NCBI GenBank assembly: GCA_902541175.1
Contig: CACBPP010000004.1
Coordinates: forward strand, 6,661 to 70,660
Direction of reading: 5' to 3'
Source: an uncultured SAR86 cluster bacterium
GTDB lineage: Bacteria; Pseudomonadota; Gammaproteobacteria; Magnimaribacterales; D2472
DNA: 64,000 nucleotides
Shown: one piece after another, positions 704 through 59,172 of the stretch
Layout of the letters: every line of letters begins with the position of its first letter
Numbering within the stretch: position 1 is the first letter of the stretch
Translations under genes and position numbers: made by a program
Notes under the pieces: model-generated
Databases searched by the model: none
What the model saw: only the letters and a program-made list of their open reading frames with translations
What the model was told of the DNA's origin: nothing

Positions 704-746
704 AATGTTGAAAATTTAAATTTCTTGAAATACCTGGGGGGTAATC

Positions 747-3734
747 GTGAAAAAGTACTTATTATCATTATTATTAATGTTGCCTATCTCTATGTTTTCT
801 ATTGCACAGGAAACTAATACAGATGATGAGGTCGAGGAAGTTGTTGTAACTGGAATTAAGAAAAGCTTAATCAGCGCAATTGATATAAAAAGAAGCAATG
901 TTGGAGTTGTTGATGCAATTACTGCAGAAGATTTTGGTAAATTCCCAGACAATAATTTAGCTGAATCTCTTGCAAGAGTAGTAGGTATAGGTATTGATAG
1001 AAGTAACGTTGAAGGAGAAAGAGTTGCTGTAAGGGGATTTGGCCCGGAGTTAAACTTAGTTACTCTCAACGGTCGTCAAATGCCAACAGTTCCTGGTCAA
1101 TGGGGCGGAGGAAGATCTTTTAATTTTGGAGATATTTCATCTCATGGTGTTGCAGCTGTTGAGGTCTATAAATCTACAAATAGCTCATTACCGTCTGGTG
1201 GTATTGGCTCGACAATTAACATGGTTACAACAAAACCATTATCAATAAATGGTACTTTGAATTCATTTTCAGTTGACGTTTTAGACGACACTACAAGTAG
1301 TGATGGTTTAAAGCCTGAATTTAATTTTGTTCATAGCTCAAACTTTGGTAAGTTTGGTTTTGCAGTATCAGGCTCATTTCAAGACAGAAATAATGTTGAA
1401 GAAGGTACTCGAGAATCTAACTGGATAACTGTAGAGGACTTAGCTGCTATAGAGGGATATTCCAGAGTAGACAAAACAGCTGCTGGAATAACTAACAATA
1501 ATACAAGAGCTGATGGTAAAACTTTTTACCAAGAGCCAGCAGCTTATCAAATTAAGGAAAATGATAGAGAAAGAACAAATGCTCAAGTAACAATGCAGTA
1601 TGCCTTTTCTGATAATGTGATGGCAACAGTTGATTATACCTATTCTAAGGTTGAATTTAGTTCAATTGGACAAATGTTTGGATCTTGGCTTGGTGGGTGG
1701 ACAACTTCTCAAGGAACAATAAATGAAAACGGTGTATATACTGATGTTGTTGTTGGAGATAGAGGATATGATCATCAGTTAATCTGGGGTGATACTGAAA
1801 ATGAGAATGGTTCATTAGGTTTAAATATTGAATGGAACTATTCTGACGCTCTTTCTTTTGTTTTTGATTATCACGACTCATCTGCTGAAAAAACTGGAAC
1901 AGAGCTACCTAATGAACTTGGTTTTTCTACTCCAGCCACTGCAACTATTTATAGTTATAACGGCGGTAAAAATGGTATAAATACTTTCCTCTATGACAGA
2001 GATTTTGATTCTGATGATTTTATGTATGGATCACTATATTACAGAGATGCCTTCAAAGAAAATCAAATGGAGCAAATGCAGTTCAAAGGCAAATGGGAAA
2101 ATTTAGATGGCAAAATAAGTGATTCAATAAAATCTATTGAATTTGGCATTTCAAGTGCTGAATCTGAATTTAATGACATCAGATCAGAGCAGATTAACAA
2201 TGCTACGCCAAACACTTCAGCAAGTGCTTCAATTTTTTCCAAAACTTCTTTATCTGGTTTTATGGGCCTTACAGATATACTTACTACTTATTATTTTGAT
2301 ATTAATAAAAACACGGCAATTAATGAGTGGGTTTCAAACTTTGGCGAAATAACATCAGGTCCTATTGATATAAACGATAAAATTGAAGAGACACTTAATG
2401 CAGCGTTCATTCAAGTTAATATGGAGTTTATATTGAATGATAAGCCTCTAAATGTAGTTGCTGGTGTAAGATACGAAGAATCTGATACAACTTCAACAGC
2501 ATTAGAAGCTACTCCTTCATTGATAAGATGGGACTTTATTAATGGTCTTATTTATCCAAGTGGTGGCGAAGTTGCTGCTGCAAGATCAGGAAGTAATGAT
2601 ATTGTCCTACCTCAATTAGCAATGGCTTATGAATTAACTGATGATCAAGTATTAAGGTTTAGCTATGGTAAGTCTATGGGTAGACCATCATTGCAAGATC
2701 TTAGAAGTTCTTTCCAATTTGGGAATAGAGACTTTTTAGTTCCAACAGCATCAGGTGGAAACCCAGGATTGGAGCCACTTGAGTCTGAAAATATTGATCT
2801 TGCTTATGAATATTACTATGACGAAGGTAGTTATTTTTCAATCAATTACTTTAAAAAAGATATTGATAACTTTATAAGTTCAGATGTTTCACTAGGTGCT
2901 ATTGATGGATTAACGAATCCTGCTAATGGTGAAATAGGTGCTTTTGCTCAAGCTTGTGTTCAAGAATGGGATACAGCTGGTAGGCCGGATACTGTCTCAT
3001 ATGGTGAGCCAGGATCATGGACATACTGTCCATCGCAACAAGCTATCTGGGCTCAATCATGGATGAATATATATCAACACATGGCGTGGGTTGCTTTAGC
3101 AATGCAAGCTCATGGTGGCTCTTTACCTGAAACATGGAATAACGGTTGGGCTTTTGATTATGGTGGAGGTTCACCTAACTGTAATGATGGTGGTTGGTGG
3201 AGATGTAATCCAGGATACATTGATGGTACAAGTTCAGATCCAGCGGCTATTTTTGAGATTATGAGACCTCTTAACCTTGAATCAGGCTCTGTAGATGGTT
3301 TTGAAATCGTACTTCAACATCTATTTGGTGATTCAGGTTTTGGAACACAAATTAATGCAACTTTTGTATCTGGTGGAGATGTTGATATTGATAGAAATGA
3401 CTTAAGCCGACAATTTATTTTACCTGGTCTTGGTGATTCAAGTAATTTTTCAGTATTCTATGAAGACTCTAAGATAACAGCTAGAGTTGCTCTAAATTCA
3501 AGAGGAGAAACAGTTGCTGGTTTTGGAAACTATGATCAACCATTATATGTTGAAGAACGAAATCAGTGGGACATATCAATGGCATATAATGTAAATGAAG
3601 ATGCAGTGGTATTCTTTGAGATCCAAAATATTAATGATGAACCAACAAGACTATATGCCAGATATGAAGAGATGTTATTTTTATCTCAAGATCATGGCCC
3701 AATTAGAAGGTTAGGCTTTAGATATAAGTTTTAA
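747..3734 (+). CDS. TonB-dependent receptor (glycan-uptake type)
   Basis: Signal peptide, TonB box EEVVVTG, plug motifs DAITAEDFGKFPDNNLAESLAR and VRGFGP, GNPGLEP, C-terminal RYKF. GTG start preceded by GGGGGG SD. Confidence 0.95.
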   Translation: MKKYLLSLLLMLPISMFSIAQETNTDDEVEEVVVTGIKKSLISAIDIKRSNVGVVDAITAEDFGKFPDNNLAESLARVVGIGIDRSNVEGERVAVRGFGPELNLVTLNGRQMPTVPGQWGGGRSFNFGDISSHGVAAVEVYKSTNSSLPSGGIGSTINMVTTKPLSINGTLNSFSVDVLDDTTSSDGLKPEFNFVHSSNFGKFGFAVSGSFQDRNNVEEGTRESNWITVEDLAAIEGYSRVDKTAAGITNNNTRADGKTFYQEPAAYQIKENDRERTNAQVTMQYAFSDNVMATVDYTYSKVEFSSIGQMFGSWLGGWTTSQGTINENGVYTDVVVGDRGYDHQLIWGDTENENGSLGLNIEWNYSDALSFVFDYHDSSAEKTGTELPNELGFSTPATATIYSYNGGKNGINTFLYDRDFDSDDFMYGSLYYRDAFKENQMEQMQFKGKWENLDGKISDSIKSIEFGISSAESEFNDIRSEQINNATPNTSASASIFSKTSLSGFMGLTDILTTYYFDINKNTAINEWVSNFGEITSGPIDINDKIEETLNAAFIQVNMEFILNDKPLNVVAGVRYEESDTTSTALEATPSLIRWDFINGLIYPSGGEVAAARSGSNDIVLPQLAMAYELTDDQVLRFSYGKSMGRPSLQDLRSSFQFGNRDFLVPTASGGNPGLEPLESENIDLAYEYYYDEGSYFSINYFKKDIDNFISSDVSLGAIDGLTNPANGEIGAFAQACVQEWDTAGRPDTVSYGEPGSWTYCPSQQAIWAQSWMNIYQHMAWVALAMQAHGGSLPETWNNGWAFDYGGGSPNCNDGGWWRCNPGYIDGTSSDPAAIFEIMRPLNLESGSVDGFEIVLQHLFGDSGFGTQINATFVSGGDVDIDRNDLSRQFILPGLGDSSNFSVFYEDSKITARVALNSRGETVAGFGNYDQPLYVEERNQWDISMAYNVNEDAVVFFEIQNINDEPTRLYARYEEMLFLSQDHGPIRRLGFRYKF

Positions 3735-9453: not shown

Positions 9454-9676
9454 GTACGGATGGCAACCGACTAGTGACCAACTGCAGACGGGAAGCTAGA
9501 GAGAAAGCCAGACGGAGAGACCGAAGGGTGAAAGCATTTGCAAGAGTCGATGATAAAAAATAGCTTGCAGATCCACCAAGGATTCAAGAGAAAGAATCCA
9601 AGGAGCTAAAGAAAATCTCACTTTAGACCCCTGAGGAATCGATTGAAAGAAACAGAGCTAGTCTCTGTTTTTTTTT
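9454..9676 (+). ncRNA. ~220-nt structured non-coding RNA, IMES-1-like
   Basis: GC- and purine-enriched intergenic island with its own promoter and terminator (GAAACAGAG-CTAGT-CTCTGTTT, T tract). Stems TGCAAG/CTTGCA, GGATTC/GAATCC, GGTG/CACC, CTCA/TGAG. Segments ACCAACTGCAGACGGGA and AATCTCACTTTAGACCCCTGAGGA resemble the marine IMES-1 motif as I recall it; not verified by search. Confidence 0.7.
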
Positions 9677-20650: not shown

Positions 20651-20674
20651 AGGGAGCATATTGCTCCCTTTTTT
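20651..20674 (+). terminator. Rho-independent terminator
   Basis: AGGGAGCA-TAT-TGCTCCCT followed by a T tract. Confidence 0.8.
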
Positions 20675-20693: not shown

Positions 20694-20769
20694 GCGGGTG
20701 TGGTGTTAATGGCTAGCACAATAGCCTTCCAAGCTATTGGTACGGGTTCGAATCCCGTCACCCGCTCCA
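20694..20769 (+). tRNA. tRNA-Gly (anticodon TCC)
   Basis: Acceptor GCGGGTG/CACCCGC, anticodon arm ATAGC-CTTCCAA-GCTAT, GGTTCGAATCC, U73, CCA. Confidence 0.95.
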
Positions 20770-21516
20770 TTATCTTCTAATTGCTACTCCAGAAAAATCA
20801 ACATTGTTACATGTGAATGCTGCACCTGTTGTTGAAGGAAGATCACTATTATTATATTTGTTTTGTGCAATTTCTTTTTCAGTACTATTGGCCCATAAAT
20901 TTAACCAAACAAAGTCTGGTGCTGGATCCGCTGGTTCAAATTTTGGGTCTAAAAGGCCATACCAATATGAATCACTCCAATTTGTTGCAGCTATATCATC
21001 TCTAAAGGTATCAAGATCAGCCTCGGAGTAGCCTTCATTATAGTTACAAAAGTTAAAGCTATTAACAAATGACCCAGTAGCATTTTCAACTTTTGGATAC
21101 TGTCCTATTGTCCAACCAAAAAGATAAACATTATCTAAATCATATTGCATAATGCCATCTATCATAGTGTCCCAATTTGACTGTAAATTTGAAGTCCAAT
21201 CATTCCAACATGCATCTCGGCTGCTTTGAGAATCCCACAGCAAAACCCAAATAAAATCATATCCTTCATTCGCAACCTCGGGAGTTAAGATGTTTGCACC
21301 CGTCATTCCGCTACACATAGCATCATCTATCATGCCATTCCAGGATCTAATTAACATAGCAAGATTATCTGCTGAAAAGTCTGATCCAGCTTTATGCCAT
21401 ACATATTCTACGAGAGATGTTGGTGCTTCAGTTGTTTCACTCTGATTTTGATTATCACTTTGTGAACAAGCAGTAATTATAAATATTGAAGTAAGCAGTA
21501 AAGTAAATTTTTTCAT
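20770..21516 (-). CDS. Hypothetical two-domain lipoprotein (family of 8578 and 19903)
   Basis: Lipobox ITAC; YDFIWVLLW / PDFVWLNLW repeats; CNYNEGYS; C-terminal Cys. Confidence 0.75.
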   Translation of the reverse strand: MKKFTLLLTSIFIITACSQSDNQNQSETTEAPTSLVEYVWHKAGSDFSADNLAMLIRSWNGMIDDAMCSGMTGANILTPEVANEGYDFIWVLLWDSQSSRDACWNDWTSNLQSNWDTMIDGIMQYDLDNVYLFGWTIGQYPKVENATGSFVNSFNFCNYNEGYSEADLDTFRDDIAATNWSDSYWYGLLDPKFEPADPAPDFVWLNLWANSTEKEIAQNKYNNSDLPSTTGAAFTCNNVDFSGVAIRR

Positions 21517-21579
21517 ATTTGTTTATTTAAATTAATTTCTCTATTTATAACATATTTCTGATAATAAAAATAAAAATAT

Positions 21580-21655
21580 AAAAAAAAGCAGGCATTTTTT
21601 GCCTGCTTTTAAGACCTAGGGGATATGAACTGTGAGGATATTCAAAGGCCTTTAT
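21580..21655 (-). ncRNA. Candidate sigmaE-dependent small RNA (~75 nt)
   Basis: Lies between a sigmaE-consensus promoter and a GC hairpin with U tail (AAAAGCAGGCA/TGCCTGCTTTT). Body folds AAGGCCU/AGGUCUU and UGAA/UUCA, leaving unpaired UAUCCUCAC and UAUCCCCU. Confidence 0.6.
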
Positions 21656-21658
21656 CAA

Positions 21659-21685
21659 TATGACTAATTAATAAATGAAAAGTTC
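21659..21685 (-). promoter_or_regulatory. sigmaE (RpoE)-type promoter
   Basis: Minus strand GAACTT-N16-TCATA (gTCAtA), matching the GAACTT-N16-TCwrA consensus; overlaps the last codons of pilD. Confidence 0.6.
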
Positions 21686-22491
21686 ATTAAATTTAATACA
21701 AAATAGATCAAAGAACTAAGTATCAAAAAAGACCCGAATGGCAACTCGCCATTAACTGCCTTCTTAGAAAATATAAAATAAAGACACCCCAAAAAAGATC
21801 CTATAAACAATATTGCTGGTAATGCGATTGGACCATGGATTGAACCAATTCCTCCAAATAAGATAAAGTCTCCTCCACCAATACCATCCTTTTTCTTTAT
21901 AACTTTAAATATAAGATTTATTAACCAAAGTGAAGAGTAACCAAAAAAAAGGCCATAAAACGCAAAAGAAATTGGCCTGATGCCTAAGATCAAAAAAGTT
22001 TCATCTATGAATAATTGATATTGAGCATTAAAAGTTATTCCTAAAAGTACTATTAATAAATTTATGTATACAGGTAGATATAAATATTTATAATCAAGAA
22101 AAAATAGTATGTAGAAACAAAAAATAATTACTGTATAGACAATAGTTGATAGACCAATTCCATAGTTAGTTGTAAGTAAAATACCAATTAATAAAAAAAA
22201 TATTTCTGTAAACGGATAAAATTTTGAAATATTTGAATTACAAAACTTACATTTTCCACTTTGAATCATAAACCCAAACAAAGGTATCAAATTAATAGCA
22301 TCAATTTTTTTAGAACATGAAGGACAACAAGATCTTATTTTAGATAAAGGAAATGGGCTGTTAGGAGCAAGCCTAAAAATTATTGACGAACAGAAACTGC
22401 CAATCGATAAAAAAAATATTGAAATTATTATTAAATCAATAATTGAAAAAGAACTTAGACTTATAAAAACTGGATTATAGATATTAATCAA
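21664..22491 (-). CDS. pilD: Prepilin peptidase (A24, PilD/GspO)
   Basis: IGSFCS..IFRL, RSCCPSC...GKCKFC Zn motif, catalytic FLD and GGGD. Confidence 0.9.
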   Translation of the reverse strand: MINIYNPVFISLSSFSIIDLIIISIFFLSIGSFCSSIIFRLAPNSPFPLSKIRSCCPSCSKKIDAINLIPLFGFMIQSGKCKFCNSNISKFYPFTEIFFLLIGILLTTNYGIGLSTIVYTVIIFCFYILFFLDYKYLYLPVYINLLIVLLGITFNAQYQLFIDETFLILGIRPISFAFYGLFFGYSSLWLINLIFKVIKKKDGIGGGDFILFGGIGSIHGPIALPAILFIGSFLGCLYFIFSKKAVNGELPFGSFLILSSLIYFVLNLMNFSFIN

Positions 22492-58062: not shown

Positions 58063-59172
58063 GTGAAAAAATTTGATTCTATAAGACCATATCATGATGA
58101 TGAAGTTCATCAAGTTTTGATTGATCTATCTAACAACAGAAGATTTTTAAAAATGTTATTTTCTACAGGTAGGTTTAATAAAATAAGATACCTACCTTTT
58201 TCAAGAAAAGTTCTTAGCCTTGTTCTTAAAAACAGAATTAAAAATATAAAAAGTGTTAGTCAGTATCAAGATGCATTTGAAGCAGTGGTCTCTGAAGTAA
58301 TAAAGAATTCAATCAAAAAATTTTCAATAACTGGTATCGAAAATTTAGATTCTAATAAAGGATATCTTTTTGTAGCAAACCATCGAGATATAACCCTTGA
58401 TTCAGCATTACTTAATTTTACATTGCATCAAAATAATTTTAAGACCACTTATAACGCAGTTGGCAATAATTTATTGAGTGAGAAGTGGGCATCAGATCTT
58501 ATGCGATTAAATAAAAGTTTTATTATTGATAGAAGTGATAAATCAAAAAGAGATATATATAAAAGTTTAAATCTTGCATCAGAATTTATCTACAACACAA
58601 TAGTTAATGAGAACGAGTCTATTTGGATTGCACAAAAACAAGGCAGATCTAAAGATGGTAATGATTACACAGATCCATCAGTGATTAAAATGATTCATTT
58701 GAACGCAAGAAAAAAATTATATGTAAATGATTATCTTAATAGTTTAAATCTTATTCCAGTTTCAATATCTTATGAAAAAGATCCTAATGATCTACTTAAA
58801 GCCAAAGAAATGTACCTAACAGACCTTAATCAAAAATACATAAAAGAAAGAAAAGAAGATATGGAAAGCATTTTTCAAGGTATTAATGGCTCAAAAGGAG
58901 ATGTGCATTTAAATATTGGTAAAGTAATGCACTTTGATTCAGATTCTTATGAAGAATGTTCTGATCAAATTACTGAAGCAATAAAGCAATCATATCAACT
59001 ACATTCAACAAATTACGCTGCTGCTTTAATACAAGGAAAACCAAATAACAATAGCAAATATTCACCAGAAGAAATTAATGAAGCAATAGAGTATCTTGAA
59101 AATAGAATGAACCTCATACCAGATGATATGAGGCCATATTTTCTTAATCAATATTCCAATTCTGTGATATAG
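58063..59172 (+). CDS. Glycerolipid acyltransferase (PlsB/PlsC superfamily)
   Basis: FDSIRPY, NHRDITLD (HX4D-type), GNNLL, WIAQKQGRSKDGND, SYEKDP. Confidence 0.85.
   Translation: MKKFDSIRPYHDDEVHQVLIDLSNNRRFLKMLFSTGRFNKIRYLPFSRKVLSLVLKNRIKNIKSVSQYQDAFEAVVSEVIKNSIKKFSITGIENLDSNKGYLFVANHRDITLDSALLNFTLHQNNFKTTYNAVGNNLLSEKWASDLMRLNKSFIIDRSDKSKRDIYKSLNLASEFIYNTIVNENESIWIAQKQGRSKDGNDYTDPSVIKMIHLNARKKLYVNDYLNSLNLIPVSISYEKDPNDLLKAKEMYLTDLNQKYIKERKEDMESIFQGINGSKGDVHLNIGKVMHFDSDSYEECSDQITEAIKQSYQLHSTNYAAALIQGKPNNNSKYSPEEINEAIEYLENRMNLIPDDMRPYFLNQYSNSVI

What the first reader, a model, noticed from the sequence alone, without database searches (positions are those of the whole stretch)
21580..21685. 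Candidate sigmaE-dependent sRNA with a 12-bp seed match to the SD of the TBDR at 747
Seen (minus strand): GAACTT-N16-TCATA promoter inside the pilD 3' end, a ~75-nt RNA, and a GC terminator with U tail. Its segment 5'-UAUCCCCUAGGU-3' (21625-21614) pairs continuously (10 Watson-Crick, 2 G:U) with 5'-ACCUGGGGGGUA-3' (732-743), which covers the SD and ends 3 nt before the TBDR start. Weaker matches occur at the SDs of 8578 (UAGGGAGAUA) and the 55754 small ORF (AGGGGAU). Known: sigmaE sRNAs (MicA, RybB, MicL, VrrA) repress outer-membrane protein synthesis by SD occlusion. Inference: an undescribed envelope-stress sRNA controlling TBDR load in a streamlined bacterium.
Basis: partly seen in the sequence, partly recalled or inferred. 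Interest (0 to 1): 0.85.

Follow-up and report, generated by a model that had tools for sequence, protein, structure and literature searches.

The report
Envelope-stress small RNA in SAR86
Just after the pilD gene of a SAR86-type marine bacterium lies a previously undescribed, strongly conserved gene for a roughly 73-base RNA that appears to be switched on by the cell's envelope-stress sigma factor and is built to pair with the ribosome-binding sites of outer-membrane nutrient receptors.

Summary
Taken alone, neither the promoter motif nor the 12-bp match beats chance: GAACTT-N16-TCNNA occurs 2 times in the window against 0.75 expected, and 4 of 60 shuffled loops pair as well.

Comparative evidence makes it real. 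I collected 37 copies from 8 genera of one SAR86 family. GAAC and GTC are invariant at fixed spacing while the spacer varies. A stem with compensatory changes encloses a loop carrying UCCUC and UCCCC motifs, and a terminator follows. Three copies lack pilD upstream but keep the promoter.

The same bipartite motif precedes rpoE in 28 of 29 family genomes, and also precedes lptD and rseP. RpoE is the genome's only ECF sigma. Hfq was found in 0 of 57 genomes of the order.

The TonB-dependent receptor (TBDR) at 747 is the best of 1180 start regions. In 22 of 27 genus orthologues its ribosome-binding region keeps CCUAGGGGG while the rest of the 5'UTR drifts. This gives 9-12 contiguous pairs with the genome's own RNA in 12 of 13 genomes.

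Not shown: a discrete transcript, sigmaE dependence, or repression. GGGG-type ribosome-binding sites on TBDR genes also occur in SAR86 families where the RNA was not found. Nothing in Rfam matches.

The parts
21680..21685 (-). -35-like element GAACTT of the sigmaE-type promoter, inside the last codons of pilD
   Evidence: GAAC is invariant in 37 of 37 copies at fixed spacing from GTC. It sits in a different pilD reading frame in distant relatives and is retained in 3 copies with no pilD upstream.
21659..21664 (-). -10-like element GTCATA, overlapping the pilD stop codon
   Evidence: GTC is invariant in 37 of 37 copies; the variants are GTCATA, GTCTTA, GTCAAA, GTCTAT and GTCTCA. The same variants occur upstream of rpoE in the family.
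21580..21652 (-). Predicted RNA of about 73 nt. The 5' end is inferred 6-8 nt after the -10 element and the 3' end lies in the U run.
   Evidence: Fold -22.5 kcal/mol, z = -4.3, 0 of 200 shuffles as good. Covariance models R1-R3 find one copy in this genome and copies in 8 genera of the family. The ends were not mapped.
21646..21652 (-). P1 stem, 5' arm (AAGGCCU)
   Evidence: Pairs with 21611-21617 in the minimum-energy fold of 37 of 37 copies. All 5 modelled pairs show double changes and 99.2% of cells are paired (that alignment was fitted to the model).
21634..21643 (-). Loop motif 1, GAAUAUCCUC (anti-SD-like CCUC)
   Evidence: Unpaired in the centroid fold. Invariant in the 14 genus copies. 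A UCCUC-type motif is kept in most other genera.
21618..21626 (-). Loop motif 2, AUAUCCCCU, the core of the proposed seed
   Evidence: CCC and the following GGUC are invariant across 30 copies from 4 genera. Unpaired in the folds.
21611..21617 (-). P1 stem, 3' arm (AGGUCUU). Its first four bases are also part of the 12-bp match to the TBDR leader.
21580..21610 (-). Intrinsic terminator: an 11-bp stem and a run of 8 U
   Evidence: The stem has compensatory changes.
732..743 (+). Proposed target site ACCUGGGGGGUA, covering the SD of the TBDR mRNA
   Evidence: Rank 1 of 1180 start regions. The block (A/G)CCUAGGGGG(U) is conserved in the genus: 22 of 27 orthologues are exact, while the upstream 5'UTR varies.
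747..3734 (+). TonB-dependent receptor gene (995 aa, GTG start)
21664..22491 (-). pilD (prepilin peptidase), the upstream neighbour whose 3' end hosts the promoter

Best explanation
This is an independent small-RNA gene of about 73 nt, conserved across one family of SAR86 (order Magnimaribacterales). It is transcribed from an RpoE (sigmaE)-type promoter that overlaps the end of pilD, and it ends at an intrinsic terminator.

The RNA folds into a 5' hairpin whose large loop displays two C-rich motifs, UCCUC and UCCCC, followed by the terminator hairpin. Under envelope stress the RNA would accumulate and pair, without Hfq, with G-rich Shine-Dalgarno regions. The loop CCCC would make first contact with a GGGG(G) SD, and pairing would then extend into the 3' arm of the stem. 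This would block ribosome binding on mRNAs of TonB-dependent receptors, the dominant large outer-membrane proteins of this organism. The clearest case is the receptor at window 747 in this genus.

Shown in silico: the conserved gene, the structure, the promoter class, and conserved complementarity. Inferred: transcription, sigmaE dependence, repression, and the breadth of the target set.
For: **The gene**
- In 15 of 15 genus loci (one cut by a contig end) the stretch after the pilD stop is nearly invariant, although PilD is only 43-87% identical.
- 37 copies were collected from 8 genera (g1, g10, g11, g12, g13, g14, g16, g17).
- There is one copy in this genome.

**The promoter**
- GAAC and GTC are invariant in 37 of 37 copies at fixed spacing. 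The spacer columns are only 30-80% conserved.
- GAACTT falls in different pilD reading frames.
- In 3 of 37 copies no pilD lies upstream. In the two whose neighbour I identified (G168 and G059; G102 was not checked) the RNA follows ggt directly, and all three keep GAACTT/GAACC-N16-GTCAAA.

**The sigma factor**
- The genome has three sigma-70-family genes. The only ECF one scores best against RpoE and has an RseA_N-like gene next to it.
- 28 of 29 family genomes carry AACTT-N16-(G)TCNNA upstream of rpoE, with the same -10 variants.
- The same motif precedes lptD (19 nt before the start) and rseP.

**The structure**
- P1 appears in the minimum-energy fold of 37 of 37 copies, with different arm sequences: AGACC/GGUCU, CUGACC/GGUCAG, GUUGACC/GGUCAAC, GUUGGU/ACCAAC, GGCUGCC/GGCAGUC and UUGUGA/UCACAA.
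- All 5 of 5 P1 pairs show double changes, and 0 of 500 shuffles reach the covariation score.

**The target**
- The TBDR at 747 ranks 1 of 1180 start regions.
- TBDR start regions score better than the rest (Mann-Whitney p = 7.6e-4).
- GGGG lies within -22..-3 in 7 of 13 TBDRs against 46 of 1168 other genes (Fisher p = 3.4e-7). Other signal-peptide-like genes are not enriched (8 of 46 GGGG genes are signal-peptide-like, against 177 of 1168 overall; p = 0.67).
- 22 of 27 genus orthologues keep CCUAGGGGG, with the G run ending 5-6 nt before the start codon, while upstream columns are 30-60% conserved.
- Pairing with the genome's own RNA reaches at least 9 bp in 12 of 13 genomes: 12 bp in 3, 11 bp in 7, 10 bp in 1 and 9 bp in 1.
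- In the thirteenth genome (G017) the RNA has CCUGGG and the target CCCAGG. A G-C pair stands where the genus-typical pair has A-U.

**Hfq and ProQ**
- Hfq was found in 0 of 57 genomes of the order, and ProQ in 0 of 1.
Against: - No transcript ends or strand were obtained. Contigs from 3 of 4 marine RNA runs cover the RNA but continue into pilD (21592-21850, 21507-21723, 21597-21707). RNA libraries can also carry DNA.
- Within one genome the 12-bp helix is matched by 4 of 60 shuffled loops.
- The long pairing is genus-specific. 747-type orthologues in g11, g10, g13 and g16 give 5-8 bp, and in g14 the SD is AGGAA with 5 bp.
- GGGG-type SDs on TBDR genes also occur where the RNA was not found: 2 of 12 (G025), 6 of 16 (G030) and 3 of 12 (G032). 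RNA-bearing genomes show 9 of 18, 7 of 16, 5 of 13 and 2 of 11. The SD variant therefore does not track the RNA.
- In a second TBDR group, seed and site do not always co-vary. G148 has an altered seed with an unchanged site (5 bp), and G129 has a mismatch.
- Four bases of the 12-bp match lie in the P1 stem and must be opened.
- RpoE scores 180 bits against a 236-bit equivalog cut-off, and RseA_N scores 23.6 against 24.
- My gene starts come from a home-made caller, and several were wrong.
Confidence: 0.55

Rival explanations
1. It is a genuine sigmaE-type small RNA, but TonB-dependent receptors are not its main direct targets. The C-rich loop may act on other mRNAs, on G-rich SDs in general, or as a decoy for a protein or another RNA.
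For: - The seed is conserved in 8 genera, but long pairing to the 747-type TBDR is seen in one genus only.
- GGGG SDs on TBDRs exist in families where the RNA was not found.
- 46 non-TBDR genes also have GGGG in the SD region.
- Motif 1 has a perfect 12-nt complement before a called serS start. That start looks mis-called, because the Pfam match begins at position 19 of the N-terminal domain model.
Against: - TBDRs are the only coherent class among the top hits. Ten other top hits are housekeeping or unrelated genes.
- The CCUAGGGGG block is conserved beyond what an SD needs.
Confidence: 0.25
2. The RNA is real, but its promoter is used by another sigma factor (the housekeeping or the heat-shock one). 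In that case it is not an envelope-stress RNA.
For: - In many copies TATAAT- or TATAAA-like hexamers overlap the pilD stop codon in this A+T-rich DNA.
- No experiment ties the motif to RpoE.
Against: - The invariant letters are GAAC and GTC. These are the letters I recall as the core of the sigmaE consensus, not of a -10 TAnnnT.
- Counting by hand on the copies printed, TTGAAC lies 21 nt from the TATAAT-like hexamer, which is too far for sigma-70.
- The AT-rich hexamers are not conserved in g16, g12 or g13.
- The identical motif stands before rpoE in 28 of 29 genomes and before lptD and rseP.
Confidence: 0.1
3. It is only the 3' untranslated region and terminator of the ggt-pilD transcript, a cis element with no promoter of its own.
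For: - RNA-run contigs bridge pilD and the element.
- Its position directly after a stop codon, with a terminator, is what any operon end looks like.
Against: - An ordinary terminator region would not stay nearly invariant where the protein upstream is 43-50% identical.
- The promoter letters are conserved across reading frames and where pilD is missing.
- The loop motifs are invariant and single-stranded, while the stem covaries.
Confidence: 0.07

Closest known systems
MicL of E. coli (PMC4102768, passages read)
   Same: A sigmaE-dependent small RNA whose promoter lies inside the coding sequence of the upstream gene (cutC) and which ends at that gene's terminator. It represses an abundant outer-membrane protein, and promoter conservation inside a coding sequence was used as evidence.
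   Different: - MicL is 308 nt, processed to 80 nt, has Hfq-binding features and targets lpp.
- Here the promoter is only about 30 nt from the stop codon, the RNA is about 73 nt, Hfq was not found in the order, and the proposed targets are TBDRs.
- No sequence relation: nothing in Rfam matches.
MicA, RybB (E. coli) and MicV, VrrA (Vibrio): sigmaE-dependent repressors of outer-membrane protein synthesis. MicA and RybB are described in PMC4102768 (passages read). For MicV I saw only the search-listing abstract of PMC6694218. VrrA is recalled.
   Same: The regulatory logic: the stress sigma factor induces a small RNA that lowers synthesis of outer-membrane proteins.
   Different: Those RNAs bind Hfq, and as I recall they use a single-stranded 5' end as seed. 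Here the seed sits in a hairpin loop and no Hfq gene is present. There is no homology.
ChvR of Caulobacter crescentus (PMC6237742, passages read)
   Same: An Hfq-independent small RNA that represses a TonB-dependent receptor. It uses stem-loop regions, includes a 12-bp continuous match, and has one site just upstream of the start codon.
   Different: ChvR is alphaproteobacterial. As I recall it is controlled by the ChvGI two-component system rather than an ECF sigma. It has two sites on one target, and the authors discuss it as having only a single target. There is no sequence relation.
Staphylococcal Rsa RNAs and RNAIII with unpaired UCCC motifs (PMC2790875, passages read). Listeria LhrC is known to me from a search-listing abstract only (PMC4132741).
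   Same: Hfq-independent RNAs with a 5' hairpin and a 3' terminator. They carry conserved unpaired C-rich motifs, often in several copies, that bind SD sequences and block initiation. LhrC is induced by cell-envelope stress.
   Different: These are Firmicutes RNAs with different regulators and no homology. To my knowledge this design has not been linked to sigmaE in a gammaproteobacterium. I ran no dedicated search for that beyond.
Yfr1 of marine cyanobacteria (PMC2796815 and PMC6778093, search listings only; the porin targets are recalled)
   Same: A short RNA in a streamlined marine bacterium with an ultraconserved unpaired C-rich motif between hairpins. As I recall, it targets outer-membrane porin mRNAs.
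   Different: A different phylum and a different regulator. No homology.
IMES-1 RNA (Rfam RF02034)
   Same: Another non-coding RNA of SAR86. It is present in this same window at 9461-9652. It is probably the 'abundant non-coding RNA' that Dupont et al. placed in SAR86 genomes (PMC3358033, passages read).
   Different: It is a different locus, about 190 nt long, and has no relation to the RNA studied here. The identity with Dupont's RNA is my inference, because their Supplementary Figure S5 could not be seen.

Membership tests
sigmaE-dependent envelope-stress small RNAs (MicA/RybB/MicL/MicV class) | A promoter of the sigmaE type that depends on sigmaE | tested here: inconclusive
   The motif match and its conservation are met: 37 of 37 copies, and the same motif before rpoE in 28 of 29 genomes and before lptD and rseP. 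Dependence on the sigma factor cannot be tested with these tools.
sigmaE-dependent envelope-stress small RNAs (MicA/RybB/MicL/MicV class) | The organism has rpoE with its anti-sigma system | tested here: met
   The RpoE-like gene scores 180 bits (below the 236-bit equivalog cut-off) and is the only ECF sigma among 3 sigma-70-family genes. Its neighbour scores RseA_N 23.6 against a cut-off of 24. RseP is present. RpoE was found in 31 of 31 family genomes.
sigmaE-dependent envelope-stress small RNAs (MicA/RybB/MicL/MicV class) | A discrete small transcript ending at an intrinsic terminator | tested here: inconclusive
   The terminator is present and conserved. RNA-run contigs cover the element but cannot show ends, and they continue into pilD.
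sigmaE-dependent envelope-stress small RNAs (MicA/RybB/MicL/MicV class) | Base-pairs with the start region of outer-membrane protein mRNAs and represses them | tested here: inconclusive
   Complementarity is predicted and conserved within the genus: at least 9 bp in 12 of 13 genomes, and the site is conserved in 22 of 27 orthologues. It is weak in other genera. Repression is not testable here.
sigmaE-dependent envelope-stress small RNAs (MicA/RybB/MicL/MicV class) | Acts through Hfq | tested here: not met
   The Hfq family PF17209 was found in 0 of 57 genomes of the order that are at least 90% complete, while the control genomes gave hits. ProQ was not found in this genome.
sigmaE-dependent envelope-stress small RNAs (MicA/RybB/MicL/MicV class) | Sequence or structure homology to a described family | tested here: not met
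   Rfam 15 at E up to 10 gives only noise over the element: L20_leader at 18.3 bits and IsrM at 12 bits, far below their cut-offs. Nothing reaches gathering score.
Hfq-independent C-rich-loop small RNAs (RsaE/RNAIII/LhrC type) | Conserved unpaired UCCC-type motifs, often more than one copy, between a 5' hairpin and a terminator | tested here: met
   The UCCUC and UCCCC motifs lie in the loop of P1 in 37 of 37 folds, and the CCCC core is invariant in 30 copies.
Hfq-independent C-rich-loop small RNAs (RsaE/RNAIII/LhrC type) | Homology or a taxonomic range in Firmicutes | tested here: not met
   The organism is a SAR86 gammaproteobacterium (record titles), and no Rfam family matches. The resemblance is in mechanism only.
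IMES-1 (RF02034) | A match to the covariance model | tested here: not met
   IMES-1 matches window 9461-9652 and does not match 21580-21652.

The most novel reading that the evidence does not exclude
SAR86 lacks Hfq and has only three sigma-70-family sigma factors. It may mark its TonB-dependent receptor mRNAs with an unusual GGGG-type ribosome-binding site. A single sigmaE-driven RNA with CCCC and CCUC loops would out-compete the ribosome at exactly those sites, using the loop as a toehold and then opening its own stem. One 73-nt RNA would thereby throttle the whole dominant class of outer-membrane proteins during envelope stress. This would amount to class-wide control through a private variant of the Shine-Dalgarno sequence.
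Probability: 0.2. Interest if true: 0.8.

Novelty: new member of a known kind. Interest (0 to 1): 0.64.

Why it matters
SAR86 is among the most abundant bacterial groups of the surface ocean. It takes up its food through many TonB-dependent receptors: 17 in this 1.16-Mb genome, and 'a highly disproportionate number' according to PMC3358033 (passage read). Almost nothing is known about how such streamlined cells regulate genes.

This would be, as far as my searches show, the first small RNA of SAR86 with a readable regulatory logic: its inducer, its structure, its seed and a candidate target class. It would also show that the 'stress sigma factor plus small RNA that lowers outer-membrane protein synthesis' circuit of enteric bacteria exists, rebuilt from unrelated parts and without Hfq, in an oligotrophic ocean bacterium.

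It is directly testable with reporter assays in E. coli and with strand-specific marine metatranscriptomes. The covariance model could also serve as an in-situ marker of envelope stress in SAR86 populations.

Tried and rejected
- **Full-length duplex folding.** Folding the RNA against 60-nt start regions gave long, unrealistic duplexes with large internal loops in this A+T-rich genome. I replaced it with a contiguous-helix scan.
- **Model R1 with strict filters.** It missed divergent copies and suggested presence in only 3 genera. Its g15 hit was a bare terminator. R2 and R3 then found copies in 5 more genera.
- **Low-scoring R2 and R3 hits.** By inspection 5 of 12 R2 hits were terminators only (G063, G043, G003:C4, G142, G154). 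All 10 R3 hits in families f2, f3 and f4 were terminators only. A hit at L204:2380-2471 was also a terminator.
- **Alignment A5.** It contained 5 spurious rows and was not used for counting. A6 was used instead.
- **Co-occurrence of GGGG SDs with the RNA.** This test failed: such SDs are also present in families where the RNA was not found.
- **Enrichment among exported proteins.** GGGG SDs are not enriched among signal-peptide-like genes other than TBDRs (p = 0.67).
- **Seed and target co-variation in a second TBDR group ('ADNPG' type).** g14 has AAUCCCC with GGGGAUU, and g1 and g11 have UAUCCCC with GGGGAUA. G148 and G129 are counter-examples, so I make no claim.
- **A repeated DNA site.** CCCCTAGG occurs only 3 times in the genome on both strands, and the other two lie inside genes.
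- **A small open reading frame.** Rejected because the loop has indels of 1 to 4 bases that are not multiples of three.
- **Sequencing runs.** 18 runs were listed, each holding 0.09-0.26 of the sampled words. In the 4 laid runs, parts without cover and the depth figures are not evidence.
- **Shi et al. 2009 (PubMed 19444216).** The paper is not held. Its small-RNA groups, and Supplementary Figure S5 of PMC3358033, could not be seen and might already list this RNA.
- **Search for prior description.** Full-text searches for 'SAR86' plus 'small RNA' (10 papers), for SAR86/TonB/sigma E and for sigma E-dependent/sRNA/TBDR found no description of this RNA.
Full report
**What is at the coordinates**

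Read on the minus strand, the last codons of a prepilin peptidase gene contain GAACTT at 21685-21680. This gene is pilD (21664-22491), confirmed by A24_N_bact and Peptidase_A24 hits. After 16 bases comes TCATA at 21663-21659, directly after the TAG stop.

About 7 bases further on begins a stretch that folds into a 7-bp stem (21652-21646 with 21617-21611). The stem encloses a 28-nt loop. Directly after it lies an 11-bp G+C-rich hairpin and a run of 8 T. The fold has z = -4.3, and 0 of 200 shuffles fold as well.

The segment at 21625-21614 pairs with 732-743 by 10 Watson-Crick and 2 G:U pairs. The match ends 3 nt before the GTG of a 995-aa TonB-dependent receptor (TBDR). Every coordinate in the finding is correct.

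**Is it more than chance within this one genome? Barely.**

- The motif GAACTT-N16-TCNNA occurs twice in the window against 0.75 expected, and 16 of 100 shuffles give at least two. It occurs 17 times in the genome.
- A scan for the best contiguous helix between the RNA's loop and 1180 start regions puts the 747 receptor first, at -19.7 kcal/mol. The gene starts come from my own caller.
- However, 4 of 60 shuffles of the loop reach that energy somewhere in the genome.

**The organism**

The window lies in a 1.16-Mb genome with 32% G+C and 90% completeness. Public contigs holding the RNA's core include a SAR86 single-cell genome and 'TMED' gammaproteobacterial MAGs (titles).

The order has four families, as in the published taxonomy of the SAR86 order Magnimaribacterales (PMC11582366, passages read). 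The family of this window has at least 9 genera in the sample. By number of genera that would fit the 'Suzuki' family of that paper, which is my inference.

**Conservation**

In all 15 loci of the genus that I examined (one cut by a contig end), the sequence after the pilD stop is almost invariant, although PilD itself is only 43-87% identical.

I built covariance models in three rounds:
- R1 found the RNA in g1, g11 and g14 only, using strict filters.
- R2, run without strict filters, found divergent copies in g10, g12, g13, g16 and g17.
- R3 found nothing but bare terminators in 15, 25 and 15 genomes of the other three families.
- In g15 no convincing copy was seen.

Among the 37 copies collected:
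- The letters GAAC and GTC are invariant at a fixed distance, while the 16-nt spacer is only 30-80% conserved per column.
- GAACTT falls in one pilD reading frame in this genome and another in distant species.
- In 3 of 37 copies no pilD lies upstream. In the two whose neighbour I identified (G168 and G059; G102 was not checked), the RNA follows the gamma-glutamyltranspeptidase gene that precedes pilD here. All three keep the bipartite motif.

This is the signature of a promoter, not of coding constraint or of an operon end.

**Which sigma factor**

The genome has three sigma-70-family genes. Their sizes are those of RpoD and RpoH, plus one ECF sigma. The ECF sigma scores best against RpoE, at 180 bits against an equivalog cut-off of 236. 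It is followed by a gene with a borderline RseA_N match.

Upstream of this rpoE, 28 of 29 genomes of the family carry AACTT-N16-(G)TCNNA. The -10 variants are GTCAGA, GTCATA, GTCTTA, GTCTGA and (G/T)TCAAA, which overlap those at the RNA gene. The 29th genome differs in the last letter.

In this genome the same motif stands 19 nt before lptD and upstream of rseP. As I recall, lptD, rseP and rpoE itself are classical members of the sigmaE regulon of E. coli, whose consensus I remember as GGAACTT-N16-TCAAA.

A sigma-70 reading is unlikely. Counting by hand on the copies printed, the TTGAAC that overlaps the -35 element lies 21 nt from the TATAAT-like hexamer present in some copies. That hexamer is also not conserved in g12, g13 or g16.

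**Structure**

All 37 copies fold with the stem P1 around the loop. The arm sequences differ between genera while pairing is kept:
- AGACC/GGUCU
- CUGACC/GGUCAG
- GUUGACC/GGUCAAC
- GUUGGU/ACCAAC
- GGCUGCC/GGCAGUC
- UUGUGA/UCACAA

On a model-fitted alignment of 25 copies, all 5 P1 pairs show changes on both sides and 99.2% of cells pair. None of 500 shuffles reaches the covariation score, and sliding the partner by one column drops pairing to 47-62%. That alignment leans towards the structure.

The loop carries two C-rich motifs. In this genome they read GAAUAUCCUC and UCAUAUCCCCU. The CCCC core and the following GGUC are invariant in 30 copies from four genera. Non-triplet indels in the loop exclude a small ORF.

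Rfam has no match.

**Chaperones**

Hfq was not found in this genome, nor in any of 57 genomes of the order that are at least 90% complete. ProQ was not found here either.

**Targets**

The genome has 17 Plug-domain receptors. For 13 of them I had a called start.
- Seven of these 13 have GGGG within -22..-3, against 46 of 1168 other genes (Fisher p = 3.4e-7).
- Other signal-peptide-like genes are not enriched.
- Four TBDRs fall in the top 20 of the helix scan, and the rank test gives p = 7.6e-4.
- Ten other top hits are unrelated genes, such as those for seryl-tRNA synthetase, riboflavin synthase, PRPP synthetase and ribosomal protein L2. Some have mis-called starts.

The strongest evidence comes from orthologues of the 747 receptor in the genus.
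- Of 27 genomes, 22 have exactly CCUAGGGGG and 25 have CU(A/G)GGGGG. The G run ends 5-6 nt before the start codon.
- That block is 70-99% conserved per column, while the 20 nt upstream are 30-60% conserved. The proteins are only 47-56% identical in most species.
- In the 13 genomes where I hold both partners, the contiguous helix with the genome's own RNA is 12 bp in 3, 11 bp in 7, 10 bp in 1, 9 bp in 1 and 7 bp in 1.
- The last case (G017) has G in the RNA and C in the target where the genus-typical pair has A and U.
- The conserved block extends 3-4 nt upstream of what the anti-SD of 16S rRNA would need. That judgement rests on my recollection of the anti-SD sequence.

**Limits**

- Orthologues in other genera give only 5-8 bp, and g14 has an AGGAA SD.
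- GGGG SDs on TBDR genes are also found in genomes of the three families where the RNA was not found: 2 of 12, 6 of 16 and 3 of 12. RNA-bearing genomes show 9 of 18, 7 of 16, 5 of 13 and 2 of 11.
- A second receptor group shows both agreeing and disagreeing seed and site changes.
- Genomes of one family are kin, so the counts overstate independence.

**Expression**

Eighteen public runs, 14 of them recorded as RNA, hold small shares of the stretch.

Laid contigs of three marine metatranscriptome runs from three studies cover the RNA from close relatives, but they continue into pilD. One bridges to the downstream gene. The fourth run covers only pilD. Contigs cannot show ends or strand, and DNA may be present in such libraries. 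Transcription as a discrete RNA is therefore not shown.

**Comparison with what is known**

- The logic is that of MicA, RybB and MicL. The placement of the promoter inside the upstream gene is that of MicL (PMC4102768).
- The design is an Hfq-independent RNA with a 5' hairpin, unpaired C-rich motifs aimed at SD sequences, and a terminator. This is the design of the staphylococcal Rsa RNAs (PMC2790875).
- The target class and the 12-bp Hfq-independent pairing recall ChvR of Caulobacter (PMC6237742).
- It is homologous to none of them.
- The only non-coding RNA reported for SAR86 in the papers I found is probably IMES-1 (PMC3358033), which sits elsewhere in this window at 9461-9652.

**Verdict**

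| Claim | My estimate |
|---|---|
| A real, previously undescribed small-RNA gene family of one SAR86 family | about 0.9 |
| Driven by a sigmaE-type promoter | about 0.75 |
| Represses TonB-dependent receptors, at least the 747 type in this genus | about 0.5 |

It is a new member of a known kind of circuit, rebuilt without Hfq in a streamlined ocean bacterium.

Noticed in passing
window 9461-9652 (+): A full-length IMES-1 RNA (Rfam RF02034, 190 bits against a gathering score of 81). This places the abundant marine metatranscriptome RNA in a SAR86 genome. It is probably the non-coding RNA mentioned by Dupont et al. (PMC3358033).
   Followed up: partly
window 58082-58108 (-): A second exact GAACTT-N16-(G)TCTTA motif, 83 nt upstream of a glycerophosphodiester phosphodiesterase gene (GDPD, 244 aa). 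It may be another sigmaE-type promoter.
   Followed up: no
G000 contigs C1:92261 (+) and C6:40416 (+); L001 2100-2060 (-): SigmaE-type motifs upstream of lptD, rseP and rpoE. Together with the RNA gene they outline a minimal envelope-stress regulon in a genome with only three sigma-70-family sigma factors.
   Followed up: partly
whole order (57 genomes): No Hfq gene was found in any of 57 SAR86 genomes that are at least 90% complete, across four families. ProQ was not found in this genome.
   Followed up: partly
TBDR start regions in G000, G019, G025, G030, G032, G040, G051, G087, G098: Many TonB-dependent receptor genes across all four SAR86 families use a GGGG(G)-type ribosome-binding site instead of GGAG. 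In G000 the figures are 7 of 13 TBDRs against 4% of other genes. The cause is unexplained in families where the RNA was not found.
   Followed up: partly
window 21535-21560 (-): A conserved block AATATGTTATAAAT (an extended -10-like TGTTATAAAT) lies between the RNA's terminator and the downstream 248-aa lipoprotein-like gene (20770-21516). It is present in most relatives. That gene has no Pfam family.
   Followed up: no
window 20651-20669: A perfectly palindromic hairpin that reads as a terminator on both strands, next to a tRNA gene at 20694-20766. In several relatives a tRNA gene on the opposite strand directly follows the RNA gene instead of the lipoprotein gene.
   Followed up: no
L004 (G004), L017, L019-L021, L023: Some pilD matches in relatives contain in-frame stop codons (1 TGA, or TAA), which suggests decay of pilD in parts of the order. 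pilD is missing between ggt and the RNA in G168 and G059.
   Followed up: no
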